DNA of 64,000 nucleotides, taken from IMG/VR virus record IMGVR_UViG_3300045004_000088, positions 1-64,000 of that record; one strand, given 5' to 3'. This document shows positions 33,578 to 61,183 of the stretch, piece by piece. Each line of letters begins with the position of its first letter. Within the stretch, counting starts at the first letter, position 1. Source of the stretch: a virus. Position numbers and translations under genes: made by a program. The notes beneath the pieces were generated by a model. The model was not told where the DNA came from and ran no database searches. It worked only from the letters and a program-made list of their open reading frames with translations.

Positions 33578-36500
33578 ATGGCTGATCCGCAACTTCACGT
33601 CGTAGTCGATGCAATCGGCCGCAACGTAAACATGAACATCGACCCAAACCAGTGGGACGAACTGAAAAGTTCGATCACCGCCGGTATGAAGTCAGTTGTC
33701 GGGGAAGTCGCGTCGGTCATCAGCCAGAAAACGTCGTCCCAGTGCAAGTCAATCGAAGCAGCTTTGAACGAAATGAGTTCGAGTTTCGCTGAAGAAATAT
33801 CGGGCCTGAAGCGGGTGATGAACGAACTCGGCCAGAAGATCGACAACATCGGCAAGGGAACGGGAACCCCAACTCTCGGCGGCGACGTAAGCGGTTCCTT
33901 GGGCGTGATTCAAACGAACACTCAGGCCGTTTTAGACTACGTCAAGGGCGAATTCAAAACCGCGTTTGCTGGTCAGGCGTCCGACATTCGTGCAATGAAA
34001 GATATGGCGTCAACGCCGGGCAAGTTCTTCACACACGACCAAGAAACACACAGACTGCTAGGCGGCTTGAAAGCCGCCATCGAAGCATGCTGTCCGGGTT
34101 CTTCGGTCGTTGACAAGACCCCATCCGTAGCTCCTTCGCCGACAGAAAGGGCGGCTCCGAGTGCGGCACCATCGGGTGGCGGTGGTGGCGGGGGTGGTGG
34201 CGGGGGCGGTGGCGGGCCGAGTCCGATGGACCGTGCCAGAGCATTTGAAGCGGCCATGAATGCCGCGACCACGTCAAACGAGGGCATGAACGACTCGCTC
34301 ACGCGGGGTCGAAGGGCTTATCGTCAGCACCGCGAAGACATGATGGCGACGGATGACGCACTTGAAGGTTTCATCGGCCACGTCGCCGATCTTCAAGAGG
34401 CGTTTTTCGTCTTCTCGAAGGACATGAGTTTCTTGAAGGATACGTTCCTCGGCACCTTCAAGTCCATGTTCAAGGAAGCCGTACACGAAGAAGTCAAGTT
34501 CATCAAAGAGACGCGGGCCGCGATCAACGAGACGCAAGGTCTGACAGCCGAGACACGAGGTCTTCAAGACGCGATGACGGACATCGGCAAGACCGCCAAG
34601 ACAACCGGCGTCGGCCGCTCCGAGTTCCAGGCGTCTTACCTGAAGGCTCTGAAGTCGGGCATCAAGGACCAGAAGATCGCGATGGCGGTTACGACGGCCC
34701 AGTTGAACACCGAGAAGCAGTTGGGTCTTGAGGCCGGCGAACTGACCGAAGAGTTCATCAAGTGGAACAACCAGTACAACATGTCCACCATGCAGATCGC
34801 CGAAATGGGGCGGGGCATGCGGGACATCGCACGCTACACAGGCTTGACGGGCAAGGAACTCGCCAACGCCGTCAAACAGGGTGACAACTTCGTTGAGGTT
34901 CTCCGCAACGCCGCCATGTTGAGTGCGAGCGCAGCCAAGAACGTCATGGAGATCGCCGCCAACGCCCAAAAGATGGGTGTGACTAAGCAGATCGAACCGC
35001 TGATCAAGGCGATGGCATCGACCAACAACTTGTTCCGCGAAGCGTCGAGCGAGACTCGCGCCTTCCTGTTCCAAGCCGCCGCCCAGGTCGGTCGCACGGG
35101 CGACTTGATGAAGGGTACGATCCTCAAGACGAAGGGCGGCATCAAGGACATGGAGAAGGGCATGGAGATGATGCTGAAGAAATTCGGCGTCCAATCCGTT
35201 GAGGCCATCGACAACCTGTCCGACGAAGCCAAGATGAAGCTCAACCTCCAGTTGAAGGCCGCATACGGTCTTGAACTCGGCGAGTTGCAGCAGTCGCTGA
35301 AGGCGTTGAAAGAGTCCAGCAAAACCCTGGCCGACCGCCTCGATGACATCCGCAAGAAACAACAAGGCAACCTCACGCTGGAAGAAAAACTGGCGTTGAA
35401 GGAAGAGGAGCGTCGTCTCAAAACGAGCAAGAGCTTCGAGATGTTGACGAGTTTGGACGAGGCGGCTAAGGGCGCTAAGGACATGAACGCCGCGTTGTCC
35501 AAGTTCGGAGAAAGAAGGAAGGACTTCGAGGGCGACCTGAAGGCGATGGGTAAGTCGTGGGGCAGCAACGCCGGTGCAGCCCGTGACGCCATCAACGAAG
35601 CTTTGAAGGGTGTCAACGAGTCGCTGAAGGCGTCCGGCAAGTCGGAACTGAGTATCGACTCTTCTGAGATCGAGAAGGCGTTGAAAGACCCTGCGGCGTT
35701 CCGCGAACTGTCGGCCAAGTTGACTAAGGCCGAACAAGAAGCCGCGACCGCACAGAAGGCCGCTCTGGACCCGATGAGCAAGATCGAGCAGGGCGTCCGC
35801 GAACTGAACGACACGATGAGGAACTTCACCAGCAGTTTCCTTTCAAGTTACATGAACTTGACGGGAGTGTTGGGCGTATTGGCTCCGCTCTTGGGCATGA
35901 TGGCGGCACAACAGGCGTTGTCCATCGCACGGTGGCGGGCCGACAAGGACTTCGGTGTGATGGGTGTGCTTAAAAAAGGCTTGGGCAAGATCTTCGGTTA
36001 CGGCGGCAAGAAGAAGGGCGGGGCGGGGGACGTTGCACCCGGTGCGGCGGCTGGTTCAGGAGTTGATGCGGGCAAGGGCGTCGAGGCTTTGGCAAAAGAC
36101 GGTTTGGGCGGCGTGTCTCACGTCGAAGACGACACGGTAGCAGGGTTGCTGCGTCAGTTGCTTCACTGCCTGTGCAGTCCGAAGGCCAACGGGATCGAGA
36201 ACGACGAGTTCAAAAACATCGGCAAGAAGAATAAGGCCAATGCCGCCCAGATCGAACAAGGAGCGGTCGCCAAAGCGGAGAAGAAGGCGGGCGGGGCAGC
36301 GGCCAAAGAAAAAAGCAAGGCGTCGGCTGGTGGCGACGACACCAAATCGATCCTAGACAAGATCGAGAAACTGAAGGGGGACGGACCAAGAATCGCTAAA
36401 GCGGCCGGCATCATCGCGGCACTGACAATCGGAATCGTGCTGTTGGGCGCGGTGTTGATCAAGTTGGCTAACATGTTGTTCAGCAAATTGAAGCTGGACA

Positions 36501-39500
36501 TCAAGACGGTCATCGAGACGGCCGCGATCATCGGCGTGATCATGGGAGCGGCTGGACTGATCGGCACCGCCTTGTACTACGCCAAGCCACACCTCGACAA
36601 ACTCGCGGATGCCGAAAAGGACATCAACGCGATGGTCAAGAACATGTGGAAGGGCGCTAAGGCGTTGGCGAAGTTGTCGGGTCCGCTGCTCGTGTTTGCG
36701 GCGGAACTCGCGATCTTCGGCAAGATCGTTCTGGGTGCGTTGGGGCTGAGTCCGGGCAGGTTGCTCCTGATCGCCGGAACGTGGATCGCGTTGGCTCTCG
36801 GTATCGCCGGAATCGCGGAAGCGATTGTCCGGTCTGGGCCGATGTACGCACAACTCCCGGTCGCCACGAAGATGATGCACACGCTCCACAAAGAACTGTG
36901 GGCCGCTGTAGGTGCGTTCGGACTCGTGACTCTGCCGCTGATCGCGTTCGCCGCAATCATGGCGTTGTTCGGTTACGTCGTGATCGACAAGTTCGGGTTG
37001 ACTCCGGGCCGCATGTTCGCCATTGCAGCGACGTGGTTGATCCTCGCCGTCGCGGTCGGAGCCATCGGGTACGCTCTCACGGCTTCGTTGCCGGGATGGG
37101 CGACAATGGGTGCCGGTCTGAGTGCCGTGTGGTCGATCTATCCGATGCTGTGGAGTGCGGTGGCGGCGTTCGCGCTAGTCAGCTTGCCGCTCATCGCGTT
37201 CGCGGGCCTTCTCGCACTGTTCGGATACGTTGTCATCGACAAGTTCGGCCTGAGTCCGGGCCGCATGTTCGCCATTGCAGCGACGTGGTTGATCCTCGCC
37301 GTCGCGGTCGGAGCCATCGGGTACGCTCTTGCCGCCTCGTTGCCCGGATGGGTAACGATGGGTGCCGGTCTGTCGGTGATCTGGGCGTTGATGCCGGTGT
37401 TGCTAAACGCAGTGGCCGCATTCGCCTTAGTGAGTCTGCCGATCATCGCGTTCGCGGCACTTCTTGCAGGGTTCGGGTACATCGTAATTGATCAACTCGG
37501 ATTGACTCCGGGCCGTATGTTCCAGATTGCAGCGACATGGTTGATCCTCGCCGTCGCGGTCGGGGCCATCGGTTACGCTCTAACGGCATCGTTGCCCGGA
37601 TGGGTAACGATGGGTGTCGGTCTGGGTGTGATCTGGTCGCTGCTCCCCCTGTTGTTCATGGCGGTTGCGGCCTTCGCGCTAGTGAGTTTGCCAATCGTGG
37701 CGTTCGCTGCGATTCTGGCCGCGTTCGGGACAATCGTAATTGACGAGCTTGGGTTGACGCCGAGTCGGATGTTCGACATCGCGGCGACGTGGCTGGTACT
37801 GGCAATCGGTATTGGGGCAATCTCCTACGCACTGATTGAGGCGACTCCGGGCTGGAGCATGTTGGGTATCGCCTACCCGTTCCTGCTTTACGCATACGGC
37901 TTGATGTGGTTGGGCGTGGGAGCATTCGCACTGGTAAGCTTGCCGATTCTCGCTCTGGCCGAGATCATCGCCGAGTTCGGCGACACGCTTGACGAACTGG
38001 GTCTGACCCCGGAACGGATGAAGCAGATCGGCGAGACGTTCGTGACGCTGTCTGAGACGATTGGCGAATTGTGCATGTCGATGTTGGGAGCCACCGCGAA
38101 ATTGGCGGTCCTCGGCGTTCTGAGCATCTTCTCCGTTCTGATGATGAGCCTCGCGATGTTGGGCGTCGGTGCCTTCGCGGTGCTGGCGATCCCGATTTTG
38201 GCTCTTGGCAGTGCGATCTCCAACTTCGGCCGGACGATCATTGACGACATGGGCCTGACCCCAGAACGAATGCAAGCCATTCAAGATTCGTTCACCTCGT
38301 TGACCGACACGATTAGGAGCCTGTCTTGGAAAATGATTTCGGCAACGGCGTCACTATCGTTATTGGGCGTGCTTTTGATATTCTCAACTTTGGCTTCCAC
38401 GTTTATATGGATGGGCGCGTTGGCATTCCTCGTGATGATGGGGCCGTTCCAGTTCTTGGCATACATGCTTTCCAAGTTCGCCGAATCAGTTGACATTGAA
38501 GGGGTGAAAAAAGCTGGTGAAATTTGCGAGGCGATTGCCAAGACGATTAGTACGATTCCGCCAGTCATCAAGTCACTAACCGACGAATTATTACCGTTGA
38601 TGGAACCGCGTTGGTGGGGTCTTGTTGGGCCAAGCAAGATGGAAAAAGCTCTTAAGGTAACAACAGGTTTCTTCAGTAAGAACTTTGCAGCAATCTTGAG
38701 TTTTATTTCTTACGGCATTATTGATCCAATCTTTGGCATTGGTCCCGGTGCCGCAGGTGTTAAACTCAATCCTCGCGACATTCAGACGGCCGCGAACGTG
38801 ATGAAGGGGCTGGCTGATATGCTACCTGCTATTCCACCTGTGATTGACGCACTGAATGGCCCAATTGCCGATCTGTCTAAAAAAAGTTGGTTTGGATACG
38901 GCAGTAACAAATTAGAAAAAACTCTGAATAAACTAAAAGACGGTTTCCATTCAAGTTTTGCGGCAATTTTGAATTTCATTTCTTACGGTATTATTGATCC
39001 GATATTTGGTATCGGTGCCGGTGCTTTTGGCACTAAACTAAATCCACGAGATGTTCAAACCGCCGGTAAGATTATGAAGGGGCTGGCAGAAATGCTACCT
39101 GCTATTCCACCTGTGATTGACGCACTGAATGGCCCAATTGCCGATCTGAGCAGCAAAGGCTGGTTCAGCGGCAAGAATAAGTTGCAGAAAACGTTAGCCA
39201 AGTTGCAACAAGGTTTCCAGCAGAACTTCACGGCGATTTTAAGTTTCATATCACATGGTATTATTGGCCCTATATTCGGTGCCGGCCAAGCCGAGGGCGA
39301 GGGCATTATGTTAAACCCACGCTACATTCAAATGGCTGCAAATGTGATGAAAGGTCTGGCCGATATGCTTCCGGCCATCGGAACCATGATTGACACTCTC
39401 GGCAGTGGAATTCAGAAAATCCTGAAAAGCAGCAAAATGCGGATGAAGATGGACGCAATCGAAACGTTCGCGACATGGTTCGCGAACGTAGCCCGCTTGC

Positions 39501-41377
39501 TGACCGAAGGTATGGTGATTCCGATCAAGACGCAGTTCCCGACCGTGGACGAAGTTCAGGACATGGGCGGAAGACTTGAAGGAATGACGCAGATCGTTGC
39601 CAAATTGCCGAAGTTCATGGAGGATCTGTACTCCAAGATTAAAGAAGGTTTGGCACTGTTAGATCAAAACAAGATCGAGGGCAACGAGGTAACACGATTT
39701 ACGATATGGTTCTATAACGTTGCCTCGATGTTGAACTTCGGTATTGTGATGCCGATCACGACCGGATTCCCGCCACAGAAAGAAGCGGACGACGCTATCG
39801 CCAAGCTCGACAAGATGACAGAGATCGTATCAAAGTTGCCGTCAATCGTTCAGAGCTTGAGCGAGGCGACGGCCGGCGCTCGCGAGATGATGAAGAGTTC
39901 GGGCATTTGGGGCGCGTACCGCGACATGGACATGTTCATGTGGGAAGCGGGCTTCATCATCCGTCGCGGCGTGATGGAGCCGATGCAGACATGGCCGAAA
40001 GACAGCGAGATGACCGACGCCGTTGCCCGCATCACCAAGATGGACGAAATGTTCAAGACGATGGCTCAGGCTATGGAAAGCATGGCCGCGTCAGCTAAAG
40101 CTATGGCTTCTGTTGATCTAAGTCAGTCTATGAACATGGGGAGTTTGGGCAACCCTGAAAATGGCAACTTAGCCGAGTTCGTGAGTGCGTTCGCGGAACA
40201 GAACGCCGAGTCGATGGGCATGAACGATACTAATTCTTTGGTTGATGTGATGGGTCAACAATCTCCACAAATCACATCGATGCAAAGTGCTTTGCGAATT
40301 GTCGAGAACTACACCCACGACATCAAGGATCTGTTCGAGCGGTCGTCCAGTGTCATCGGTGACATCCAGAAGACCAGCGAGTACATGTCGATGTTCGGTG
40401 ATTTGGACTTCTACGAGAACCAGATCTCCGAGAAGATCGCGCAGAGCAAGCAGTTCGTGCCGACCGTCCAGAGGATTGCAGAGAACATCGGTAAAGGCTT
40501 CGACTTTGCCGGCGGCAAGGCGTTGCTCGAAACCATCGCCGGACAGAAAGTCCGCATGGATGAAATGGCGGCGGGTCTGAAGGAAACAGAAGACTACACC
40601 AAGAAATTGGCGGAAATCTTCACGATGGCGAACAACGCCGTCAACATGATCAAGCAGACCACCAACAACCTGACGCAACTCAATGCCATCAAAGACGTTG
40701 AGAAAGAAATTACGGCCAAGATCGCGTCGGGCAACAGCTTCATGGTGTCGGTGTTGAAGACGGTCGAGGCGGTCGCCACCAACTTCGGAACCAACGAAGA
40801 GGTCAAGACGACTCTGATGGGTGTGCAGGCCAAGATCAAGGCGGCGGGCGACACGAATCAGGCGTTGACCGACTCTTTAAAGTTCATCGAGACGGTTAAA
40901 CAGTTGCAGAGCAACGTGTTGTCAATCGGCCAAATGGCCAAAGACAAGCCGCTTGGCGGTGGCGTGCCGGGTGCCGGCGCTCCTGTCAGCATCCCGGCCG
41001 CTAAGACCGGATTGAGTACGCCTGAGCCGGTACAGACCGCTTCGACAACGGGCGCGGCCAACTTGGACGTTGAGAAGACGATCATGAGAGATCAGGCGAC
41101 TTCTCAGCCGCCGGCCGGTGGCAACAAGAACGCGGTCGATTTCAGCAACTTGCAGAAGGCGATTGAAGAGAACAAGATGACCAACGACGAGATCCTCAGC
41201 GTGCTTCAGGCCATGTTGCGGCTGATGACGCCGCGTTCTGGAAGCAACACGGCACCGGGCGGGGACACGAATACATATTCGCGTCCCGACAAGCCGGCTG
41301 CTTACTACCGCGCACCCGTTGGCGACTTCAACAGTTCCGCAGGTAAGGGTGCCACCAACATGGTAAGGACCAGATAA
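33578..41377 (+). CDS. tail tape measure protein (2599 aa) with poly-Gly tract, helical N-terminal third, 7 tandem 84-aa tri-TM repeats and 3 tandem 90-aa repeats
   Basis: Size, position before the baseplate genes, GAGGA RBS; repeats read directly. Confidence 0.8.
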   Translation: MADPQLHVVVDAIGRNVNMNIDPNQWDELKSSITAGMKSVVGEVASVISQKTSSQCKSIEAALNEMSSSFAEEISGLKRVMNELGQKIDNIGKGTGTPTLGGDVSGSLGVIQTNTQAVLDYVKGEFKTAFAGQASDIRAMKDMASTPGKFFTHDQETHRLLGGLKAAIEACCPGSSVVDKTPSVAPSPTERAAPSAAPSGGGGGGGGGGGGGGPSPMDRARAFEAAMNAATTSNEGMNDSLTRGRRAYRQHREDMMATDDALEGFIGHVADLQEAFFVFSKDMSFLKDTFLGTFKSMFKEAVHEEVKFIKETRAAINETQGLTAETRGLQDAMTDIGKTAKTTGVGRSEFQASYLKALKSGIKDQKIAMAVTTAQLNTEKQLGLEAGELTEEFIKWNNQYNMSTMQIAEMGRGMRDIARYTGLTGKELANAVKQGDNFVEVLRNAAMLSASAAKNVMEIAANAQKMGVTKQIEPLIKAMASTNNLFREASSETRAFLFQAAAQVGRTGDLMKGTILKTKGGIKDMEKGMEMMLKKFGVQSVEAIDNLSDEAKMKLNLQLKAAYGLELGELQQSLKALKESSKTLADRLDDIRKKQQGNLTLEEKLALKEEERRLKTSKSFEMLTSLDEAAKGAKDMNAALSKFGERRKDFEGDLKAMGKSWGSNAGAARDAINEALKGVNESLKASGKSELSIDSSEIEKALKDPAAFRELSAKLTKAEQEAATAQKAALDPMSKIEQGVRELNDTMRNFTSSFLSSYMNLTGVLGVLAPLLGMMAAQQALSIARWRADKDFGVMGVLKKGLGKIFGYGGKKKGGAGDVAPGAAAGSGVDAGKGVEALAKDGLGGVSHVEDDTVAGLLRQLLHCLCSPKANGIENDEFKNIGKKNKANAAQIEQGAVAKAEKKAGGAAAKEKSKASAGGDDTKSILDKIEKLKGDGPRIAKAAGIIAALTIGIVLLGAVLIKLANMLFSKLKLDIKTVIETAAIIGVIMGAAGLIGTALYYAKPHLDKLADAEKDINAMVKNMWKGAKALAKLSGPLLVFAAELAIFGKIVLGALGLSPGRLLLIAGTWIALALGIAGIAEAIVRSGPMYAQLPVATKMMHTLHKELWAAVGAFGLVTLPLIAFAAIMALFGYVVIDKFGLTPGRMFAIAATWLILAVAVGAIGYALTASLPGWATMGAGLSAVWSIYPMLWSAVAAFALVSLPLIAFAGLLALFGYVVIDKFGLSPGRMFAIAATWLILAVAVGAIGYALAASLPGWVTMGAGLSVIWALMPVLLNAVAAFALVSLPIIAFAALLAGFGYIVIDQLGLTPGRMFQIAATWLILAVAVGAIGYALTASLPGWVTMGVGLGVIWSLLPLLFMAVAAFALVSLPIVAFAAILAAFGTIVIDELGLTPSRMFDIAATWLVLAIGIGAISYALIEATPGWSMLGIAYPFLLYAYGLMWLGVGAFALVSLPILALAEIIAEFGDTLDELGLTPERMKQIGETFVTLSETIGELCMSMLGATAKLAVLGVLSIFSVLMMSLAMLGVGAFAVLAIPILALGSAISNFGRTIIDDMGLTPERMQAIQDSFTSLTDTIRSLSWKMISATASLSLLGVLLIFSTLASTFIWMGALAFLVMMGPFQFLAYMLSKFAESVDIEGVKKAGEICEAIAKTISTIPPVIKSLTDELLPLMEPRWWGLVGPSKMEKALKVTTGFFSKNFAAILSFISYGIIDPIFGIGPGAAGVKLNPRDIQTAANVMKGLADMLPAIPPVIDALNGPIADLSKKSWFGYGSNKLEKTLNKLKDGFHSSFAAILNFISYGIIDPIFGIGAGAFGTKLNPRDVQTAGKIMKGLAEMLPAIPPVIDALNGPIADLSSKGWFSGKNKLQKTLAKLQQGFQQNFTAILSFISHGIIGPIFGAGQAEGEGIMLNPRYIQMAANVMKGLADMLPAIGTMIDTLGSGIQKILKSSKMRMKMDAIETFATWFANVARLLTEGMVIPIKTQFPTVDEVQDMGGRLEGMTQIVAKLPKFMEDLYSKIKEGLALLDQNKIEGNEVTRFTIWFYNVASMLNFGIVMPITTGFPPQKEADDAIAKLDKMTEIVSKLPSIVQSLSEATAGAREMMKSSGIWGAYRDMDMFMWEAGFIIRRGVMEPMQTWPKDSEMTDAVARITKMDEMFKTMAQAMESMAASAKAMASVDLSQSMNMGSLGNPENGNLAEFVSAFAEQNAESMGMNDTNSLVDVMGQQSPQITSMQSALRIVENYTHDIKDLFERSSSVIGDIQKTSEYMSMFGDLDFYENQISEKIAQSKQFVPTVQRIAENIGKGFDFAGGKALLETIAGQKVRMDEMAAGLKETEDYTKKLAEIFTMANNAVNMIKQTTNNLTQLNAIKDVEKEITAKIASGNSFMVSVLKTVEAVATNFGTNEEVKTTLMGVQAKIKAAGDTNQALTDSLKFIETVKQLQSNVLSIGQMAKDKPLGGGVPGAGAPVSIPAAKTGLSTPEPVQTASTTGAANLDVEKTIMRDQATSQPPAGGNKNAVDFSNLQKAIEENKMTNDEILSVLQAMLRLMTPRSGSNTAPGGDTNTYSRPDKPAAYYRAPVGDFNSSAGKGATNMVRTR
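34177..34220 (+). repeat. (GGN)13 simple-sequence tract encoding Gly13 within the tape measure gene
   Basis: Read directly. Confidence 0.8.
36757..38520 (+). repeat. 7 tandem copies of a 252-bp unit (84 aa, about 3 TM helices each) inside the tape measure gene; copies 2-4 nearly identical at DNA level
   Basis: Unit anchors at 36757, 37009, 37261, 37513, 37765, 38017 and 38269, all 252 bp apart. Confidence 0.8.
38708..39520 (+). repeat. 3 tandem roughly 270-bp units (SYGIIDPIFGIG...NPRDIQTA...MLPAIPPVIDALNGPIADL) in an AT-rich part of the tape measure gene
   Basis: Read directly at 38708, 38981 and 39251. Confidence 0.7.
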
Positions 41378-41916
41378 TGGCTAGAGCTACGGAAAAAGGC
41401 TCGTGCAGACTGAAACCTATCAGGAATTGTTACATCACAATTCCCGGCTACGGCCCGATCTTCATGAACAACTTGCCCGAACTGAGCGACGGCAAGAGCG
41501 CCAGTTATCCTGACACGACGATCATTGGTCGTTCGTTCCCGATCAAGGCGTTCAGCCACTCGGAAAACAGGTCGATCAGTTGGGCGATGCACTTGTTCGT
41601 CGTGTCGAAGCAGGACATCAACGACAACTTGATCTTGATGAGGAAGCTGGAGTCCTGTGTCTATCCGAGGAACACGGGACCGGGTCCGTATGCGCCGCCG
41701 CTGATCTGTCAGTTGAAGTGCGGGGAGCTTCTGAGTGTGGGGAACCAGCCTTTGAACGCGGTTCTGAAAAGTTACAGTGTGAAATTCCCGACCGACGTGG
41801 CGTGGGATGAAGACAAGCTTACTCCATTTAAGATGGACATCGATCTCAGCTTCGAGGTCGTTTATAGCAGCAACAATTTGCCTGGGGCCGAAAGAATTGT
41901 CAACCTGGGCATGTAA
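41377..41916 (+). CDS. tail protein of unknown function (179 aa)
   Basis: TAATG coupling to the tape measure gene. Confidence 0.5.
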   Translation: MARATEKGSCRLKPIRNCYITIPGYGPIFMNNLPELSDGKSASYPDTTIIGRSFPIKAFSHSENRSISWAMHLFVVSKQDINDNLILMRKLESCVYPRNTGPGPYAPPLICQLKCGELLSVGNQPLNAVLKSYSVKFPTDVAWDEDKLTPFKMDIDLSFEVVYSSNNLPGAERIVNLGM

Positions 41917-41928
41917 ACCGAGGTGACA

Positions 41929-42249
41929 GTGGCCAACTTCTTTGAAGAAACGAACATAAACCCCAGAACTTACTTCACTGCCGCGAGTCGGTATTCCGAC
42001 TCGACCATCTGCTATTACACGGACATGAAACGCCTGTCACTTACGACGTACAAGCGTGGCGTTTCTGCCGTGACCCCCAACGACAAATTCATGGTAATCG
42101 GGAAGGGCCAAGAGTACCGTCCCGATCTGGTCAGTAGTCGCGTCTACGGTCTGCCCGATTTCTGGTGGCGGATCATGGAGGCTAACGGGATCTACGACAT
42201 TTACGACTTCAAGGCCGGCGTCAACATCCGAATCCCCTCAATGATCTAA
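41929..42249 (+). CDS. LysM-like tail protein (gpX-like; ...GLPDFWWRIMEANGIYD...IKAGVNIRIPS)
   Basis: C-terminal LysM-like pattern; GTG with GAGGTGA RBS (the track start is a GTG at 41923). Confidence 0.45.
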   Translation: MANFFEETNINPRTYFTAASRYSDSTICYYTDMKRLSLTTYKRGVSAVTPNDKFMVIGKGQEYRPDLVSSRVYGLPDFWWRIMEANGIYDIYDFKAGVNIRIPSMI

Positions 42250-42258
42250 GGAAAACGT

Positions 42259-43692
42259 ATGTCTTGTAACGCAATTTGTTTGCCAGAATATCAATGTGGT
42301 GATCTACAAAAAATAAAGCCCAACACTGGCGCGGTTTACGCACCATTTGTGACAATGACATTGGGTGGAACTATCACCGTTGGTAACAAATCATTCCCAG
42401 GAGAACCCAACACAGCCTGCATCAAATCTTTTGAATTTGGCGGCTCGACTGGTGCTGGCTGTACTGTAGAAATAATTGATGAATCTGGTGGTAGTTTTGT
42501 GAGATATTTCAATGCAGTTAACAAAAATTTATGTCAAGCCGCCGATGATCACAATATGGAAATTAACTTTGGATGGATCTCCAGATCGACAGATGGAAAT
42601 TTAACCAAAATCGGAATTCCTGAAGGGCCGATATTTTTCATACCCGGAAAAATAGAAAGCGTGTACGAAGGAGGTGTTATAAAATACACGTTGAATGGAA
42701 CCGATATGTTAACCCACATGGCAGAAAGTCGCGTGCAAGTACCTGTTGGAACAGAATCAAATAAAGTTAGATTGATGCCGGCGGTAAGAAAAATGGCGTC
42801 AAGAAATTGTCCACCACTCAATAACATCAGATATTTAAGACGAAATGGACCAAATCTAACTGAATGGAGATTCAAAAATAGTGATGGCGGGCCAGAGGGT
42901 CCAATGGGAGTTTGGCAGGGAGATCAACAAAATCCTATTTCGGCCATGAGAAAATTTTTCAATTCCTTGACGACAGACCGTAATAAAGGATTTTATGCTA
43001 TTTGGAACTCTGGGTCATCAGTTCCAGAACTTTGGTTCATGGAAGATTCGCGACCATATTGTGACGAAACGTCTAATGGATTTTTTTGTGCTGGAACTTA
43101 CATTGTAAACGGAGGAGATTGCAGCCCTGTAATTAGCTTTAACCCAAAAGCAGAATGGCAATATACTGCTGATCTTAATTCGGGTGGTAACTTGGGAGGT
43201 GCCACATCTGCTAAGAATATAGAACAACGACCGCCAATAGAACAAAGACGAAGCGGGAATTGTAAGGACATAACCACTACTCAACGTGGTGCTGGTACTA
43301 CAACACAATTCGCCGCACCACAAAACGACATCAATTGGCGGTCGCCAGATCAAATTACTCCAAAAATGCAAAAAGCTATGGCGGAACACGAAACGGCGGC
43401 ACACTACAAAGAGCTGCAAGCGCCTATGGAAGCCGAGTTAAAAATACATGGCGACACAAGCTTTGTCCATCAATCGCGATGGGCCGATGCTGTTGTTTCG
43501 ATAATCGTAATAAATCCATTTCAAATTTTTTCAGGTGGTTCATACCACGAATGGCTCGCCGGGCCAATGTGTAACCCAATTTTTTCAGACAAAGAATGGA
43601 TGATAAAAGGTGTTAACCATCAAATTTCTGATGGAGCTTATACTACGACCTTAAAAGTACAATGTATGAATGTAAACAAGACTGAACAATAA
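42259..43692 (+). CDS. tail/baseplate protein (477 aa, AT-rich gene; positional analog of Mu gp43 or P2 gpD)
   Basis: Position and size; sharply lower GC than neighbouring genes. Confidence 0.5.
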   Translation: MSCNAICLPEYQCGDLQKIKPNTGAVYAPFVTMTLGGTITVGNKSFPGEPNTACIKSFEFGGSTGAGCTVEIIDESGGSFVRYFNAVNKNLCQAADDHNMEINFGWISRSTDGNLTKIGIPEGPIFFIPGKIESVYEGGVIKYTLNGTDMLTHMAESRVQVPVGTESNKVRLMPAVRKMASRNCPPLNNIRYLRRNGPNLTEWRFKNSDGGPEGPMGVWQGDQQNPISAMRKFFNSLTTDRNKGFYAIWNSGSSVPELWFMEDSRPYCDETSNGFFCAGTYIVNGGDCSPVISFNPKAEWQYTADLNSGGNLGGATSAKNIEQRPPIEQRRSGNCKDITTTQRGAGTTTQFAAPQNDINWRSPDQITPKMQKAMAEHETAAHYKELQAPMEAELKIHGDTSFVHQSRWADAVVSIIVINPFQIFSGGSYHEWLAGPMCNPIFSDKEWMIKGVNHQISDGAYTTTLKVQCMNVNKTEQ

Positions 43693-45806
43693 TGACAAAT
43701 TTATCAGACCAAATACGACAACTAGAAACAGAACTAAAAAAAGTTAAAGCTGTTCTTTCTTCAAGTCAATACGAAATGGCTAAAGTCGCAACTACGACTT
43801 TGAACGACCGTACCCACATTGTTTCTCAATCAGAACAAATGTTTGGCATGTACACTGCCCTGTGTGTTGAAACCAAAGATGTTTGGAAACAGAACCGCAT
43901 CCGTTTTTATTGCCCCTTGTTCCAGTCTCCCGACAGCCCGATGAAAAGTCTGCCGTGGGCGTGGCCGATCTCGCCTATGGGCGGGTTTGATGATTCCGGC
44001 TGTTCGTGGGTGCCACCAGCCGGCTCGACCGTCTGTTTGATTTTCGAGGGCGGCGCGAGAAACGCACCTTTCTACATTGGCACAACGTGGCATCGTAACC
44101 GAGGACCAGAAGGGGCCAATGTATGGACCATTGACATCGCGGAGTACCAGAAGGTGTGGTCGGGTCACCGCAAGGGCTACCTGTGTGGACCCAACGACGA
44201 GAGCCAGTGTTTGCCGCCGTGGAACACCGAATCTTCAAACGGGTTCGACCTTAATAGCATCGTTGACTTCGATGCGAACCCGGAAGCCCAAAAGATGTTG
44301 ACCTACCCGCACATTTACGGGTTCAAGACGCCAGAAAAACACATGCTCAAAATGGTTGACGGCGATGCGTCGTGTGACCGCCGGTGGAAAAGACTTGAGA
44401 TACTCTCGTCTTGCGGCAACTGGCTGATCTTCAAAGACGATCACCTGCACTACGCCGGCCAATACGCACACCCGACCACGGGCGGCGTTGTCAAAACGGG
44501 TGACGTGACGTGCATCGAAGGTGCCGCACCCGGCATCGACATTACCAGGGCAATCGGCCTCGGCGATTTCTTGCCGGACTTAAACCCCGTTGACTCCGGG
44601 GCCGATTTCGGCAGTGCGGACGAAGGGTCAGTGGAAGACGACACGCCGAAAGAGGGAGCTAAAATTTCAAACCCCGCTTGCAGTGCAAAAATTGTTGGCG
44701 GTCATCCCGACACACCTTACTTCCCGTCGTGGAAACCGACCAAATATCAAAAACAACAGATAGGCGCGAACCCTTTTTTCAAACACGAAAACGAGTGCCG
44801 ACCGTATCGCGGGCCGGGCAACAACCGTAACAACACCGCCATGTTGCCCCAGAGCGGCATCCAGATGATGTCTATCAGCGGCCACACATGGGTCATGGAC
44901 GACTCGGTCGAAGAACCGACTGGCGATTGCGTGTGGGAACGATCACTACGACCGTTCGACTATGGGTGCAACAACATTTTCAACGGTTACATGGGACTGT
45001 TCAGCAGTTCGGGTCACAAATTCATCATGAGTGACATCGAGCAAGACGAGCCGAACAAAAGGGGCGAAGACAATTACATCCGTCTAGAGTCGCAGGCAGG
45101 CAACATCATCGAACTCAACGATATGGAGAAGGAGATCGGGATCGCCGGTTTCCGTCGCGGCATCAGCATGCGTTCGACCAGCAAACACTTGTTCATGATG
45201 ATCGATGAGGACAACGAGCAAGACTTGATCCCGCGAAGCGATGGTAACCAACCGGTCAACAAGGCGAAGAAAGCGTTCATCAAGATCCGGTCGGGTTACG
45301 GTATCGAGTTCAAGATCGAGGACACCAACTCGCAGGAGAATACGGTTGCCCAGTCCCTGCAAATGTTCTGTCCGCAGAAGGACAATACCGAGCGTGGCCC
45401 GCACATCATGAGGTTCCAAGAGGCTCCGAGTGGTCCGGGTCAAATCATGCTTCGTGCCGGCGGCGACTACATTACAATAAGTTACGACGATCACGTCGAG
45501 ATGGTGGGCGACAAGGAAAAGAATCCAAGTAACAAGATCGGCATCATTTCCAAGAACAAGGTCGTGTCAACGGAACAGGTTTACATCAACCTCGCCCGCA
45601 TGCACGTCTTCTTGGCTAAGGAACAGATCCTGTTGTTGGCCGGTCAGGATTGTCCGTCCGAGAACGGCGAGATGGCTCCGTGTCCGGCACAGATCCTCGT
45701 GTACCACGAGGGCAAGATCAAGATCAGTGACCGCGTCATCGGAAGCTGTTCCCCGAAGGCTCCGTGTGCGTCGATCTTCATGATGTCGCCGTTCGTTTCG
45801 TGCTAA
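43692..45806 (+). CDS. baseplate hub / central spike-like protein (704 aa)
   Basis: Position between the gpD-like and gp25-like genes; TAATG coupling. Confidence 0.45.
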   Translation: MTNLSDQIRQLETELKKVKAVLSSSQYEMAKVATTTLNDRTHIVSQSEQMFGMYTALCVETKDVWKQNRIRFYCPLFQSPDSPMKSLPWAWPISPMGGFDDSGCSWVPPAGSTVCLIFEGGARNAPFYIGTTWHRNRGPEGANVWTIDIAEYQKVWSGHRKGYLCGPNDESQCLPPWNTESSNGFDLNSIVDFDANPEAQKMLTYPHIYGFKTPEKHMLKMVDGDASCDRRWKRLEILSSCGNWLIFKDDHLHYAGQYAHPTTGGVVKTGDVTCIEGAAPGIDITRAIGLGDFLPDLNPVDSGADFGSADEGSVEDDTPKEGAKISNPACSAKIVGGHPDTPYFPSWKPTKYQKQQIGANPFFKHENECRPYRGPGNNRNNTAMLPQSGIQMMSISGHTWVMDDSVEEPTGDCVWERSLRPFDYGCNNIFNGYMGLFSSSGHKFIMSDIEQDEPNKRGEDNYIRLESQAGNIIELNDMEKEIGIAGFRRGISMRSTSKHLFMMIDEDNEQDLIPRSDGNQPVNKAKKAFIKIRSGYGIEFKIEDTNSQENTVAQSLQMFCPQKDNTERGPHIMRFQEAPSGPGQIMLRAGGDYITISYDDHVEMVGDKEKNPSNKIGIISKNKVVSTEQVYINLARMHVFLAKEQILLLAGQDCPSENGEMAPCPAQILVYHEGKIKISDRVIGSCSPKAPCASIFMMSPFVSC

Positions 45807-45820
45807 TTCAAAGAGGATAA

Positions 45821-46252
45821 ATGCCGGCAATGAAGTTTTTGGGTGTTCCTTATCCCATTACACCGCACCCGCGAGGATACTTGAGATCGAGCGGGGGCAT
45901 CAGTCAGATCAAGTCCGATCTTTTGCAGTTGCTGCTCACCAACCCCGGCGAGAGGGTGATGCTGCCGACTTACGGCACGCCCCTCAAGAAGTTCATCTTC
46001 GAGCAGAACGACGCGATCTCGGCCGAGAGCGTGCGACAGGCGATCATCAATTCGATCAACCTGTGGGAGCCGAGAATAACGGTTCAAGAAATCACCGTTA
46101 AAAACAGTGCGGACGAAAGTCAATTAAACCCTCAAGATCCCAAAGAAGACTTGGAGAACGTGATGTCTATTACGATCAGGTTCTTCGATCCTGAGAACAT
46201 TCAAGAGGTCGATGCCGTGGTAATCGAACTACCAGTAGGTGGAGTACAATGA
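45821..46252 (+). CDS. baseplate wedge protein, gp25/GPW family
   Basis: Protein MPAMKFLGVPYPITPHP...SDLLQLLLTNPGERVMLPTYGTPLKKFIFEQND matches the conserved GPW/gp25 N-terminal pattern. Confidence 0.75.
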   Translation: MPAMKFLGVPYPITPHPRGYLRSSGGISQIKSDLLQLLLTNPGERVMLPTYGTPLKKFIFEQNDAISAESVRQAIINSINLWEPRITVQEITVKNSADESQLNPQDPKEDLENVMSITIRFFDPENIQEVDAVVIELPVGGVQ

Positions 46253-47811
46253 GTGAATGCCCTTTCAACGTAGAACCGTTCTCACAGTCCGGCCCGCTGG
46301 CGGCTCCGAACGTCGTCAACCTGAACTACACGAACCAAGACTTTTGGTCGATGAAGTCGCGGCTGATCGACTTCATCAAATCGAATTTCCCCAACGACTT
46401 CAACGACTTTGTCGAGTCGTCGCTGGCGATCATGTTGATCGAGAACTGGGCGTTCATTGCCGACACCTTGTCCTTCAAGATCGACCAAATCGCCAACGAA
46501 GTTTTCATCGACACCGTCACCGAGGTCGAAAACGCATTCAGACTTGCCAAATTGGTCGGCTTCAATCCGCAACCGCCGATTGCGGCGCGGTCGATGTGGT
46601 CGGCAACACTGAACAACCCGGTGCTGGCAGACGTTACCATCCCGGCCCCGTTCGACGTGACGGTGACGGCCGGAAACGAGTCCATCAGCATCGAGCTTTT
46701 CCCCGCCGACGCTGACGGGAACCCGATCTACGACCAAGACATTCTGATCCCCGCCGGTACGGTCGTGAACAACAGCGTGGTGGGTCTTGAGGGGTTCACT
46801 TACACCGACACGTTCCCCGGAACCGGCTTGGTCGGGCAGACCTATACCCTCAGCTACTTCCCGGTGATTTTCGACAGCATTCGCGTGGACGTGGACGGCG
46901 TCAGGTGGACCCAGGTGGAACAGTTCACCGACTCTCAACCCCGGCGCGAGTACAGGGTCGAGTTCAACAGCCTCTGGCACGCTTTCATCATCTTCGGCAA
47001 CAACCGGGCGGGCCTGATTCCGTCGCAGGGATCACAGATTGTTGTCACATACCGGAAGGGCGGCGGGACGGTAGGTAACATCGTCACACAGTCGATCACG
47101 TCGGAAACCGTCGTGCCGCTACCCGGTTTTGAATACTCCGTCCCGGTCGGCCTCAGCAACTACACGCAGGGCCAGTTCGGGTACGACGGCGACACGGTTG
47201 ATGACGTTCGCAGCAAGCTGCCGGCTTGGTTGGCGCTTCAGAACAGGTGCGTGACGGGTTCGGACTACAAGACGTTCGCGGACCAATTCGCCTCCCCGTA
47301 CCAGGGGCAGACGGGCAAATCGACGGCGGTTCTGAGGAACCAGGGGTGCGCGGCCAACGTCATCGACCTTTATGTTCTGGTTCGGGGGACCACGCCGTCG
47401 TCCGCGAACGATCTGCAACTCGCTTCGAGTCAGTTCAAAGCCGAACTCGGTGACGCGATCTCACAGGTCCAGATGTTCACGGACTTCGTCTGCATCAAAG
47501 ACGGGTCGATATTGCTGGTCGATGTGTCAATCGACGTGGTCATGAACAAGTTCTACAAGAAGTTCGAGGACCAGTACCGGACGATGGTGACGCAGAAAGT
47601 CGCGTCCTTCTTCTCGCTGCCGAACTGGGAATACGGCAAGTCGCTCAGGCAAGAAGACCTCGGCAAACAGTTGTCAACGATCCGCGAGGTCAACAGGTTT
47701 GAAATGAACTTCATGACCAACGACCCCGAAAACAGCGGCGTTCTGGTGACCGCCAACTACAAGCAGATCATCCGCCCGGACACGATCACAGTAACATTTG
47801 TATACGAGTGA
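46249..47811 (+). CDS. baseplate J-like protein (520 aa)
   Basis: ATGA coupling to the gp25-like gene; size and position. Confidence 0.5.
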   Translation: MSECPFNVEPFSQSGPLAAPNVVNLNYTNQDFWSMKSRLIDFIKSNFPNDFNDFVESSLAIMLIENWAFIADTLSFKIDQIANEVFIDTVTEVENAFRLAKLVGFNPQPPIAARSMWSATLNNPVLADVTIPAPFDVTVTAGNESISIELFPADADGNPIYDQDILIPAGTVVNNSVVGLEGFTYTDTFPGTGLVGQTYTLSYFPVIFDSIRVDVDGVRWTQVEQFTDSQPRREYRVEFNSLWHAFIIFGNNRAGLIPSQGSQIVVTYRKGGGTVGNIVTQSITSETVVPLPGFEYSVPVGLSNYTQGQFGYDGDTVDDVRSKLPAWLALQNRCVTGSDYKTFADQFASPYQGQTGKSTAVLRNQGCAANVIDLYVLVRGTTPSSANDLQLASSQFKAELGDAISQVQMFTDFVCIKDGSILLVDVSIDVVMNKFYKKFEDQYRTMVTQKVASFFSLPNWEYGKSLRQEDLGKQLSTIREVNRFEMNFMTNDPENSGVLVTANYKQIIRPDTITVTFVYE

Positions 47812-47814
47812 GGC

Positions 47815-50800: not shown

Positions 50801-50970
50801 ACCGGCGGAACTCGGAAGTGATCACCTCCGTCACGGAGACGATGTCGCCGATGGCGATGAGCATGGCAGCCGCCCCAGAGCCGGGGTTCTCTGACTTTGT
50901 GAAACAAGAAGAGAAAATCAACTTCCGCATTGATTACGCGGACGGAACAGTCGAAGAGGGGAGCCTATGA
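47815..50970 (+). CDS. large baseplate wedge / tail fiber protein (1051 aa)
   Basis: Position in the baseplate operon; size. Confidence 0.5.
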   Translation: MAEKTIYEVPSVTDTVVIPFLTPDADQCLLQNPYMVNNLTIYYIERDFSGGNVTQFDVETRNQDAERAATEAQNAACLDPTQENILEARKLRAQADSMRVSRPVYYNDAVPVAVIGNSSYPAWLSTDTPNALIENVPLDEEGNTVYGHFQYVWNPVGMREGNYIACWTWTPLAAGETLSQNLSFSLMGNNAITTSIPTHATPPEKYQTLLDTYLPEMYKSTLSEDDVTPSVLTRFNKSVGQGFTVLENLANQILDIMDANSTDEAFLGLLGRMFGLKLRSEDPTRWRKQIKLAVPLYKMKGTRAGLEMAFDLAGMRMTSLVRGWQIISPYTWVETFKAAGGEMEFVLSRVAQPIDSDNFEVSVRKAGNSYYTDYLPSDVSINTSDGVSTLTIENNISLENGDILRVLYQYAAIPNPTQQDIEDYIRLLPLTDQRDETVQDYPPKNWNVRLLEENDPLFSILIPNKHPYHDFLVFGKIRTEFPYSENVYNMDEYNGSIRDSLEPCDMDKDFVDPCSQCLGSKYIIDIEVDRLCDDRVNEAKDILKEFVPFHALPQTINFSGSMEDFVQPPVETIECLIYYRGSETVIAGSDQMVFNRAMIPSGMPLDQILRNTLATSTLVASGTATAYNRQIMLFSPDVPISNTGLSTDPTETVLEIYGPHPHAGNYQVTNAVGHAVEVYGPISPTSPLTEPINQSAFSFSLSNIIYENSDTSIVTDNFYKLKDATWDLAELGVKSQWDVDNGYATTAWTIKMTAYSATPYTIQDIKPEGEIVIAQDPSLPNVNATGVAYSIIRPDASVAHTGTLNLSVELRGLVTVTDGVLTDVRGVMIQPLAGQYFLYYNDTGDQYVVSELVDGETHQFYINGWSGGSVGGKSIALYDRLIDTRYGLLTYQGIGLNTVINYESSLGISNGQNPVLVPLEDSKFKENFIVVINDPVNGADEETFAIADIDGTTITLDGDIHYWTTLGNGGTSVPFEIYNYETLPVTVAGVPFQRLDRRNSEVITSVTETMSPMAMSMAAAPEPGFSDFVKQEEKINFRIDYADGTVEEGSL

Positions 50971-61164: not shown

Positions 61165-61183
61165 AAAAAAGTAAAGAGGTTCT

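What the first reader, a model, noticed from the sequence alone, without database searches (positions are those of the whole stretch)
36757..39520. Tape measure protein with 7 tandem 252-bp repeats encoding about 20 transmembrane helices, plus a second 3x roughly 270-bp repeat family
Inside the 2599-aa tape measure protein, a 252-bp unit is repeated 7 times in tandem, with exact 252-bp spacing of anchors from 36757 to 38269. Copies 2-4 are over 90% identical at DNA level and the outer copies are progressively diverged. Each unit encodes about three hydrophobic helices (...FALVSLPLIAFA...FGYVVIDKFGLTPGRMFAIAATWLILAVAVGAIGYAL...). A second, AT-rich family of three roughly 90-aa repeats follows. 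Near-identical long tandem repeats are recombinationally unstable, so tape-measure and hence tail length could vary in 84-aa steps. Such a large membrane-spanning block suggests a role in forming the inner-membrane DNA conduit. The (GGN)13 tract at 34177-34220 is another slippage-prone site.
Basis: seen in the sequence. Interest (0 to 1): 0.7.

Follow-up and report, generated by a model that had tools for sequence, protein, structure and literature searches.

The report
Giant tape-measure protein, hydrophobic repeat array
The 2,599-residue tail tape measure protein of an uncultured huge phage contains eight tandem 84-residue hydrophobic three-helix units followed by six amphipathic units of similar length, an extreme expansion of the membrane-inserting segment that ordinary tape measure proteins carry once or twice.

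Summary
ORF 33578-41377 (2,599 aa) holds eight 84-aa units (aa 976-1646), not seven. One 3-bp deletion breaks the exact 252-bp spacing. The three central copies are 75-80% identical in DNA, not over 90%; only the first ~70-84 nt of each unit exceeds 90%, including a 71-bp exact run. Each unit is all-helical, with two strongly and one marginally membrane-competent helix. That gives about 14 strong and 19-21 total hydrophobic segments.

Three 91-aa low-GC3 units follow, then three 77-aa units homologous to them.

The tape-measure call is supported by conserved synteny with contractile-tail baseplate genes, by PHROG tape-measure hits in distant family members, and by a confident model of the conserved N-domain that matches annotated tape measure proteins.

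The family has at least 446 representative clusters, all uncultured. Hydrophobic-segment number rises with protein length (rho 0.85). The closest relatives carry 7 to 9 units. Edge units are orthologous between proteins, and central units were duplicated within each lineage. Copy number therefore changes over evolutionary time. Present-day instability and membrane insertion remain untested.

Verdict: a new variant of a known kind, of moderate interest.

The parts
33578..41377 (+). ORF of 2,599 aa: putative tail tape measure protein of a contractile-tailed huge phage
   Evidence: ORF list and translation. 66 giant homologs. Synteny in L001-L004.
34172..34213 (+). 14 consecutive Gly codons (aa 199-212), a linker ahead of the conserved N-domain
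   Evidence: Codon read-out; TRF rows at 34175-34216. Gly runs of 5-11 occur in 63 of 195 family members, mostly at aa 80-220.
34445..35857 (+). Conserved all-alpha N-domain (aa 290-760), the family signature
   Evidence: Present in all 66 homologs and in 446 representative clusters. AlphaFold2 pLDDT 84.6, pTM 0.83. Best BFVD matches are annotated tape measure proteins. PDB gives nothing significant.
35852..35908 (+). Isolated hydrophobic segment (aa 759-777) at the end of the N-domain
   Evidence: Kyte-Doolittle 19-residue mean of 1.66.
36404..36502 (+). Partial hydrophobic unit (aa 943-975) that opens the array
   Evidence: Kyte-Doolittle 2.71 at aa 943-961. The sequence resembles the last helix plus loop of the 84-aa unit (translation).
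36503..38515 (+). Family A: eight tandem 84-aa hydrophobic units. Unit starts: 36503, 36755, 37007, 37259, 37511, 37763, 38012, 38264. Unit 6 is 83 aa.
   Evidence: Alignment of the 8 units. Unit HMM scores of 96-113 bits each. DNA and protein identity matrices. dN/dS. Helices of 25 + 9 + 43 residues per unit in a low-confidence model. Hydropathy.
37007..37077 (+). 71-bp stretch identical to 37259-37329 (start of units 3 and 4); a likely gene-conversion patch
   Evidence: Longest exact run and identity profile along the unit.
38504..39325 (+). Family B: three 91-aa amphipathic units (aa 1643-1916) with deviant composition (GC3 0.40-0.44)
   Evidence: Fragment self-BLAST at offsets 91 and 182, 44-72% identity, E down to 1e-36. 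The repeat finder spacing 273 bp, 82%. GC3 profile.
39347..40042 (+). Family C: three 77-aa units (aa 1924-2155), homologous to family B
   Evidence: Self-BLAST at offset 76-77. hhalign B against C: probability 88%, E 3e-6. B/C-type units occur up to 14 times in tandem in relatives.
40928..41374 (+). C-terminal ~149 aa, conserved in 33 relatives; the presumed end that docks on the baseplate hub (inferred)
   Evidence: Region-wise BLAST gives 33 hits at 43-52% to the closest relatives. The docking role is inferred from T4.
33073..33567 (+). 164-aa gene immediately upstream, conserved in position in all relatives examined; function unknown (chaperone or tube candidate)
   Evidence: ORF list. Genes of 161-164 aa at the same place in L001-L004. 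No family hit.
41377..51443 (+). Downstream baseplate module: 179 aa; 108 aa (wedge-like); 477 aa; 704 aa (Phage_base_V spike); 143 aa gp25 (45821-46252); 520 aa gp6/J-like; 1,051 aa P2-I-like; 158 aa tail-collar-like
   Evidence: PHROG and Pfam hits. The same gene order is seen in L001-L004.

Best explanation
The ORF is the tail tape measure protein of an uncultured huge phage with a contractile tail. Its central 45% (aa 943-2155) is a modular ruler built by tandem duplication of all-helical modules of about 80-90 aa. There are eight and a half hydrophobic modules (family A), then six amphipathic ones (families B and C).

The hydrophobic module has two strongly membrane-competent helices, one marginal helix and one short charged loop (D-K/E...P-G-R). 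It is the counterpart of the hydrophobic, membrane-inserting region that ordinary tape measure proteins carry in one or two copies.

Inferred mechanism:
- During assembly the whole chain lies as helices in the tail-tube lumen. Each module then adds to tail length, about 12.6 nm per 84 aa if fully extended at 1.5 A per residue.
- After sheath contraction the C-terminal part leaves first.
- The hydrophobic array then partitions into the host cytoplasmic membrane, where it builds or stabilises the conduit for the very long genome.

Over evolutionary time, modules are gained, lost and homogenised by unequal recombination and gene conversion between neighbouring units. Array length, and presumably tail length, therefore differs between lineages.

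Shown: the repeat anatomy, its hydrophobicity, its conservation and copy-number variation among relatives, purifying selection, and the tape-measure context.
Inferred: location in the tube lumen, membrane insertion, and the effect on tail length.
For: Anatomy and hydrophobicity:
- Eight units, each scoring 96-113 bits.
- 19 Kyte-Doolittle segments at or above 1.6 between aa 943 and 1631, and 0-8% charged residues over aa 1151-1450.
- 56 of 685 19-residue windows inside the array have a summed insertion free energy below 0, against 1 of 1,878 outside it.
- The model is all-helical.

Selection:
- dN/dS of 0.18-0.25 between central copies, at dS 0.65-0.75.

Turnover:
- Relatives carry 7 units (P0003), 9 (P0001, P0118) and 5-7 (P0002).
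- Edge units match their positional counterparts in other proteins. Central units are most similar to neighbours in the same protein.
- A 71-bp identical patch lies within copies that are otherwise 65-75% identical.
- Different regions of the protein have different nearest relatives.

Tape-measure identity:
- The gene sits directly upstream of the V-spike, gp25, gp6-like and P2-I-like genes, here and in four related loci.
- Distant family members hit phrog_167, 28, 5493, 23574 and 794, all tape measure families.
- The N-domain model (pLDDT 84.6) has annotated tape measure proteins as its best BFVD matches.

Precedent:
- TP901-1 tape measure protein has two hydrophobic regions of 71-89 aa, each with three putative membrane spans, and the first is essential (PMC5099701).
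- T4 gp29 has a transmembrane segment and forms the channel (bioRxiv 10.64898/2026.03.06.709160).
Against: - No tape-measure model hits this protein directly. Only 1 of 28 N-domains reaches phrog_28, at E 5.5e-4.
- No sheath or tube gene was recognised next to it.
- The repeat model has pLDDT 49, so only its secondary structure is usable.
- No dedicated topology predictor could be run, and the insertion scale was used from memory without positional terms.
- Hydrophobic-segment number scales with protein length (rho 0.85). A channel should need a fixed number of helices, so the array may be mainly ruler material.
- A relative from a 595-kb phage manages with two hydrophobic segments.
- The unit shows no detectable homology to the TP901-1 hydrophobic regions.
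Confidence: 0.55

Rival explanations
1. Ruler filler only. The hydrophobic units matter for length and for packing inside the tube lumen. They are hydrophobic only because the module that happened to be duplicated was the ancestral membrane hairpin. At most the one or two ancestral helices insert into the membrane.
For: - Hydrophobic-segment number scales with protein length over 195 family members (rho 0.85).
- Amphipathic B/C units of almost the same length vary in the same way, up to 14 copies.
- A 595-kb phage relative has only two hydrophobic segments.
- In units 7 and 8 the first helix has already turned polar.
Against: - Purifying selection keeps the units almost free of charge (dN/dS about 0.2; 0-8% charged residues).
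- A pure spacer should tolerate polar substitutions, as shown for a TP901-1 repeat replaced by alanines.
Confidence: 0.22
2. Present-day contingency locus. The array is recombinationally unstable now, so phage populations carry variants that differ by 84-aa steps and have different tail lengths.
For: - A 71-bp identical stretch shared by units 3 and 4, and 26-28-bp runs between other central pairs, could support homologous exchange.
- Central units have been duplicated or homogenised independently in each lineage.
Against: - Central copies are only 75-80% identical, with dS 0.65-0.75, so the duplications are old.
- No near-identical relatives could be found to test for polymorphism.
Confidence: 0.12
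3. Not a tape measure. The protein is another giant virion or ejected membrane-remodelling protein that merely lies next to the baseplate genes.
For: - No direct family hit.
- The N-domain is a compact globular fold rather than an extended coil.
- No sheath, tube or frameshifted chaperone was recognised upstream.
Against: - Position is conserved immediately before the hub, spike and gp25 genes.
- Distant members hit PHROG tape measure families.
- Nearly all named top BFVD matches are tape measure or minor tail proteins.
- No other tape-measure candidate exists in the module.
Confidence: 0.08
4. Assembly artefact. The repeat number was inflated or collapsed during metagenome assembly.
For: Tandem repeats are a known source of assembly error (general knowledge). 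Reads were not available.
Against: - Copies differ by 20-50%, and the longest identical run is 71 bp, shorter than ordinary reads.
- The reading frame is intact over 7.8 kb.
- Independent assemblies of relatives show the same architecture.
Confidence: 0.03

Closest known systems
Tape measure protein of lactococcal phage TP901-1 (hydrophobic regions I390-Y460 and F591-V679; PMC5099701)
   Same: It has hydrophobic regions of 71-89 aa, each with three putative membrane spans, inside a helical ruler protein. The first region is essential. Repeats in the ruler are proposed to ease gain and loss of length.
   Different: - TP901-1 has two such regions and this protein has eight and a half in strict tandem.
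- The same Kyte-Doolittle criterion finds 3 segments there and 21 here.
- There is no detectable sequence homology (hmmsearch E 0.22; hhalign probability 0.15%).
- TP901-1 has a non-contractile tail and a 937-aa protein.
T4 gp29 tape measure protein (bioRxiv 10.64898/2026.03.06.709160)
   Same: It belongs to a contractile tail. A predicted transmembrane segment is held in the tube until lipid is available, the tape measure protein forms a channel, and the C-terminal end docks at the distal tube.
   Different: gp29 is 590 aa with one transmembrane segment (aa 207-246) and no long tandem repeats. No sequence similarity was found.
Tandem repeats and homorepeats in tape measure proteins in general (PMC13585406; 11/18-aa aromatic repeats, PMC5099701)
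   Same: About half of 45,500 tape measure proteins contain tandem repeats, and polyG is the second commonest homorepeat. Repeats contribute to length variation.
   Different: The repeats described there are short (1, 11, 18 or 40 aa) and not hydrophobic. Here the units are 77-91 aa, make up 45% of the protein, and half of them are membrane-like.
Giant tape measure protein of Thermus phage P23-45 (5,002 aa, 800-nm tail; bioRxiv 10.1101/2022.12.01.518664)
   Same: It is a very long tape measure protein matched to a very long tail, with an extra functional part built into the ruler (abstract).
   Different: Its extra part is an N-terminal RNA polymerase, not a hydrophobic array, and its tail is non-contractile. 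It was not compared by sequence here.
1,640-aa homolog in the uncultured 595-kb phage LR756511.1
   Same: It shares the N-domain (30% identity over about 290 aa) and sits upstream of a homologous spike gene (36% identity over 94% of the spike).
   Different: It has only two hydrophobic segments and no 84-aa units.

Membership tests
Phage tail tape measure protein | Gene lies in the tail module, immediately before the baseplate hub/spike genes | tested here: met
   It is followed by genes of 179, 108 and 477 aa, the V-spike, gp25, and gp6-like and P2-I-like genes. The same order is seen in L001-L004.
Phage tail tape measure protein | Sequence homology to a recognised tape measure family | tested here: inconclusive
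   No direct hit in PHROGs, Pfam or PDB. Distant members that share the N-domain (profile E about 1e-87 to 1e-103) hit phrog_167, 28, 5493, 23574 and 794 at E 1e-5 to 1e-11.
Phage tail tape measure protein | Structural resemblance to tape measure proteins | tested here: met
   The N-domain model (pLDDT 84.6) has best BFVD matches annotated almost exclusively as tape measure or minor tail proteins, with Foldseek probability about 1.0, E 5e-4 to 2e-2 and query-normalised TM-score 0.3-0.44. These scores are modest.
Phage tail tape measure protein | Predominantly alpha-helical chain | tested here: met
   DSSP on both models is almost entirely helix. Only aa 290-770 and 1144-1395 were modelled.
Phage tail tape measure protein | Tail assembly chaperone pair with a programmed frameshift, plus tube and sheath genes upstream | tested here: not met
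   Only a conserved 164-aa gene of unknown function lies upstream. Beyond it are minus-strand genes, including a vault-shoulder protein. No sheath or tube was recognised.
Phage tail tape measure protein | Protein length sets tail length; protein resides in the tube lumen | not testable with these tools
   No cultured member was found: tblastn against 50,697 phage records gives only the unannotated LR756511.1.
Membrane-spanning helices | Segments of about 19 or more residues hydrophobic enough to span a bilayer | tested here: met
   19 segments with Kyte-Doolittle mean at or above 1.6 (14 above 2.0) in aa 943-1631. The summed insertion scale is at or below 0 for helices 1 and 3 of units 2-5 (scale from memory).
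Membrane-spanning helices | Consistent topology from a dedicated predictor, or experimental insertion | not tested
   TMHMM and DeepTMHMM were not available. The single charged loop per unit gives a uniform topology only if two helices per unit span the membrane.
TP901-1-type hydrophobic region | Sequence homology of the 84-aa unit to the TP901-1 hydrophobic regions | tested here: not met
   hmmsearch E 0.22 and hhalign probability 0.15%. The likeness is in size and three-helix layout only.
Contractile-tail (myovirus-type) baseplate module | gp25-like wedge protein, OB-fold spike, gp6/J-like and P2-I-like proteins | tested here: met
   PF04965 at E 8e-19. PF04717 at E 6e-9. phrog_219 at E 5e-28. 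PF09684 at E 1.5e-4, above its cut-off.
Recombinationally unstable near-identical tandem repeats | Copies over 90% identical along their length | tested here: not met
   Central copies are 75-80% identical and outer copies 44-57%. Only the first ~70-84 nt of units 3-5 exceed 90%.

The most novel reading that the evidence does not exclude
The near-constant module length (mode 84 aa for hydrophobic units, 81-84 aa for amphipathic units) across hundreds of giant tape measure proteins could reflect a physical register with the tail tube. That would be roughly three tube rings per extended module, or one ring per folded three-helix module. Tail length in this huge-phage lineage would then be quantised in module steps.

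On ejection, the 50-150 hydrophobic helices of a trimer or hexamer would assemble into an unusually large membrane structure. This would be a dedicated translocon, or membrane-remodelling device, for delivering a genome of more than 500 kb rather than a simple pore.
Probability: 0.15. Interest if true: 0.75.

Novelty: new variant of a known kind. Interest (0 to 1): 0.45.

Why it matters
Tape measure proteins are known to set tail length. Recent T4 work shows they also form the channel through the cytoplasmic membrane, using one or a few hydrophobic segments.

This protein, and the unannotated family around it, suggests how huge phages reach ruler proteins of 2,000-5,000 residues. The family has at least 446 representative clusters, all from metagenomes and named only 'hypothetical protein'. 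These proteins are built by multiplying two kinds of ~80-aa helical module, one of which is membrane-like.

The finding gives three things:
1. A recognisable signature for annotating tape measure proteins in huge-phage genomes, where they are often reported as missing (PMC12619734).
2. A natural series of unit numbers with which to test how ruler length, tail length and membrane insertion are coupled.
3. A clear case of concerted evolution inside a structural gene.

It does not overturn current ideas. It is an extreme form of known features.

Tried and rejected
- Nucleotide similarity to 50,697 phage records gave no match for the gene or for 41377-64000.
- tblastn with the whole protein, and with two distant members, found only the unannotated LR756511.1.
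- Exact-protein look-up of the window's ORF found nothing on record.
- Pfam and PHROGs gave no direct hit on the protein, even at E up to 10 on its halves. One NCBIfam call failed on a frame error and was not repeated.
- PDB searches by sequence and by profile returned only Gly-linker noise. The PDB fold search of the N-domain gave nothing below E 0.25.
- Pfam on distant members gave nothing useful.
- The homolog search with the hydrophobic array alone scored none of its 8,000 candidates, probably because of compositional bias, so it is uninformative.
- A search for close relatives, to test copy-number polymorphism, failed. IMG/VR relatives are at most 61% identical in the N-domain. A back-translated pattern for the peptide ATWLILAVAVGAI is absent from the metagenome, viral and genome collections.
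- The AlphaFold2 model of units 3-5 has pLDDT 49, so no fold search was run on it.
- Homology between the hydrophobic units and the B/C units rests on only a 14-column in-register match, which is not significant, so it is not claimed.
- The idea that unit lengths are multiples of seven (77, 84, 91) was rejected, because 81 aa is the commonest B/C spacing in relatives.
- The + strand ORFs 29645-32041, 32363-32740 and 32721-33563, first taken as sheath or chaperone candidates, are probably spurious. The minus strand carries a vault-shoulder protein that is conserved in relatives.
Full report
OBSERVATION

The window contains one uninterrupted ORF, 33578-41377 on the + strand, of 2,599 aa. Tandem Repeats Finder reports a 252-bp period at 36926-37792 with 3.4 copies, 78% matches and score 965. 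The repeat finder reports four copies at exact 252-bp spacing and a second pair at 273-bp spacing with 82% identity.

Alignment at protein level shows eight 84-aa units, not seven. They span aa 976-1646, which is nt 36503-38515. One codon is missing near the end of unit 6, so units 7 and 8 begin at 38012 and 38264. An HMM built from the units scores each at 96-113 bits. A partial unit at aa 943-975 opens the array.

The three central units (37007, 37259, 37511) are 79, 75 and 80% identical in DNA and 75-83% in protein. The outer units fall to 44-57%, so 'over 90%' is wrong for whole units. It does hold for the first ~70-84 nt: units 3 and 4 share an exact 71-bp run, while the rest of the unit is 65-75% identical.

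Downstream lie three 91-aa units (aa 1643-1916) and three 77-aa units (aa 1924-2155). The two families are homologous to each other (hhalign probability 88%, E 3e-6). Neither is demonstrably related to the hydrophobic unit. Tandem units therefore occupy aa 943-2155, which is 45% of the protein.

The Gly tract is 14 codons at 34172-34213.

HYDROPHOBICITY AND STRUCTURE

A 19-residue Kyte-Doolittle scan finds 21 segments at or above 1.6. Nineteen lie between aa 943 and 1631, and 14 exceed 2.0. Charged residues make up 0-8% of aa 1151-1450.

A summed biological insertion scale was also applied. Its values were recalled from memory and used without positional terms. It gives values at or below 0 for the first and third helices of units 2-5 and +0.9 to +5.3 for the middle helix. 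In units 7 and 8 the first helix has become polar and the middle one hydrophobic. Windows below 0 number 56 of 685 inside the array against 1 of 1,878 outside it.

Central units carry only one charged loop (D78-K/E79 ... R2 of the next unit). A uniform topology therefore needs two true spans per unit. Three spans would make successive units alternate in orientation.

AlphaFold2 on units 3-5, with 25 aligned unit triplets, gives low confidence (pLDDT 49.3). The secondary structure is all-helical and the same in each unit: 25 + 9 + 43 residues. I use the secondary structure only.

The same Kyte-Doolittle criterion gives 3 segments for the TP901-1 tape measure protein and 2 for the homolog in LR756511.1.

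IS IT A TAPE MEASURE PROTEIN?

No Pfam, PHROG or PDB model hits the protein directly. Three indirect lines agree.

First, context. The genes that follow, in order, are:
- a 179-aa gene
- a 108-aa wedge-like protein (phrog_7145)
- a 477-aa gene
- a 704-aa protein with the Phage_base_V OB domain
- gp25 (45821-46252, PF04965, E 8e-19)
- a gp6/J-like protein (phrog_219, E 5e-28)
- a P2-I-like protein
- a tail-collar-like protein

The order, including a 161-164-aa gene just upstream, is the same at three relatives (four fetched loci). One of those loci lies on a 586-kb contig. The same arrangement is implied in the 595-kb uncultured phage LR756511.1.

Second, transitive homology. All 66 homologs found are 1.6-4.4 kaa and share aa ~290-760. 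A profile of that domain retrieves 446 representative clusters at E 1e-3 or better, 388 of them at 1e-30 or better. Short, distant members of this set hit PHROG tape measure families. phrog_167 matches across the domain itself in P0181 and P0161. phrog_5493, 23574, 794 and 28 match in others.

Third, structure. The domain is modelled confidently (pLDDT 84.6, pTM 0.83) as a compact all-alpha fold. It has no significant PDB match. Its best matches among predicted viral structures are almost all annotated as tape measure or minor tail proteins, with probability about 1.0 and E 5e-4 to 2e-2.

Against this, no sheath, tube or frameshifted chaperone was recognised nearby. I put the tape-measure assignment at about 0.85.

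COMPARATIVE EVIDENCE ON THE REPEATS

The closest relatives are 72-77% identical in the N-domain and 41-52% in the array. They carry 7 units (P0003), 9 (P0001 and P0118) and 5-7 (P0002).

In an all-against-all comparison of 29 units, the first and last units of each array are most similar to the units at the same position in other proteins. Central units are most similar to their neighbours in the same protein: 75-83% in the window, 71-74% in P0001 and 77-88% in P0003. This is the signature of lineage-specific internal duplication or homogenisation with conserved array edges.

The window's central copies differ at dS 0.65-0.75 with dN/dS 0.18-0.25. The duplications are therefore not recent, and the units are under purifying selection. 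The 71-bp identical patch points to a more recent gene-conversion event.

P0003 shows the same picture: 73-83% DNA identity between central units, with exact runs of 20-36 bp.

Different parts of the protein have different nearest relatives. The N-domain is closest to P0002, the hydrophobic array to P0001 and the 91-aa units to P0003. The 91-aa units also have GC3 of 0.40-0.44, against 0.70-0.84 elsewhere in the gene. The gene is therefore mosaic.

THE WIDER FAMILY

Over 195 members, the number of hydrophobic segments rises with protein length (Spearman rho 0.85). The median is about 3 segments at 1,000-1,500 aa and about 20 at 3,500 aa.

A-type units are detectable in 64 members, with up to 9 copies. 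B/C-type units are detectable in 62-77 members, with up to 14 tandem copies. Start-to-start spacing peaks at 84 aa for A-type units (47 of 94 intervals) and at 81-84 aa for B/C-type units.

The giant size of these proteins is therefore built largely from two kinds of module of nearly equal length.

MECHANISM

Shown here:
- a modular array of hydrophobic helices under purifying selection
- copy number and sequence that turn over between lineages
- a location inside a gene that is, on present evidence, the tape measure of a contractile tail

Inferred from established tape-measure biology:
- length proportionality, from my own knowledge of Katsura and Hendrix 1984
- channel formation by T4 gp29 and retention of its transmembrane segment in the tube until lipid is present
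- two essential or important three-span hydrophobic regions in TP901-1

On these grounds, the chain lies as helices in the tube lumen, and each 84-aa module adds up to about 12.6 nm. After contraction the C-terminal part leaves first, and the hydrophobic array enters the cytoplasmic membrane.

The main rival is that the array is chiefly ruler material. The scaling of segment number with length favours this rival. The near absence of charge, maintained by selection, argues against it. The two readings are not exclusive.

Present-day instability is possible only through the short identical patches. It could not be tested, because no close relatives exist in any collection searched.

COMPARISON WITH WHAT IS KNOWN

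Several of the features are already described in tape measure proteins:
- Tandem repeats occur in about half of 45,500 tape measure proteins, and polyG is among the commonest homorepeats (PMC13585406).
- Predicted membrane helices are called a common feature of tape measure proteins.
- Three-span hydrophobic regions of 71-89 aa are described in TP901-1.

What I did not find described in five literature searches is the following:
- an array of eight or nine such regions in strict tandem
- a second amphipathic array of matching period
- a large, unannotated huge-phage family built this way

No sequence homology links the unit to TP901-1. The resemblance is therefore functional and architectural, not membership of that family.

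VERDICT

This is a new variant of a known kind. It is a real and well-supported feature. It is moderately interesting to specialists, mainly as an annotation handle for huge-phage tape measure proteins and as a natural experiment on ruler length and membrane insertion.

Noticed in passing
window 29972-32011 (-): A 679-aa ORF carries a major-vault-protein shoulder domain (PF11978, E 7e-21) and a vault repeat. Homologs of 881-887 aa sit at the same place upstream of the tape measure gene in L001 and L002. The overlapping + strand ORF 29645-32041 (798 aa) is probably spurious.
   Followed up: partly
window 38500-39300 (tape measure aa ~1650-1900) and 42259-43692: There are two sharp GC3 troughs. 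GC3 is 0.40-0.44 in the 91-aa repeat units and 0.33 in the 477-aa baseplate-position gene, against 0.67-0.84 in neighbouring coding sequence. This suggests segments imported from a lower-GC relative. Different regions of the tape measure also have different nearest relatives.
   Followed up: partly
window 51474-52493 (+): A LAGLIDADG homing endonuclease with two helix-turn-helix domains is inserted between tail-collar-like and downstream structural genes, in a stretch of lower GC.
   Followed up: no
window 57765-63376 (+): Three consecutive large proteins (336, 754 and 730 aa) carry PKD domains. They are likely fibre or adhesin components downstream of the baseplate module.
   Followed up: no
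window 23801-25351 (-): A 516-aa protein has a poly(A) polymerase / CCA-adding head domain (PF01743, E 4e-20). Homologs lie near the tape measure gene in L001 and L003.
   Followed up: no
window 34172-34213 and family members: The Gly run of 14 is the longest among 195 family members. Runs of 5-11 Gly occur in 63 of them, mostly at aa 80-220, so this is a variable flexible linker before the conserved N-domain.
   Followed up: yes
family-wide (P0004, P0009, P0077 and others): Amphipathic B/C-type units of 81-84 aa occur up to 14 times in tandem in relatives. Their module length nearly equals that of the hydrophobic unit, although no sequence relationship could be shown.
   Followed up: partly
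window 33073-33567 (+): A 164-aa gene of unknown function lies immediately upstream of the tape measure gene and is conserved in position (161-164 aa) in every related locus examined. It is a candidate chaperone or tube-related protein, with no family hit.
   Followed up: partly
window 12014-13201 (-): A 395-aa AAA-type ATPase (phrog_2376 and phrog_7485) lies among genes that are otherwise without matches. Most ORFs in 1-29000 have no PHROG or Pfam hit.
   Followed up: no
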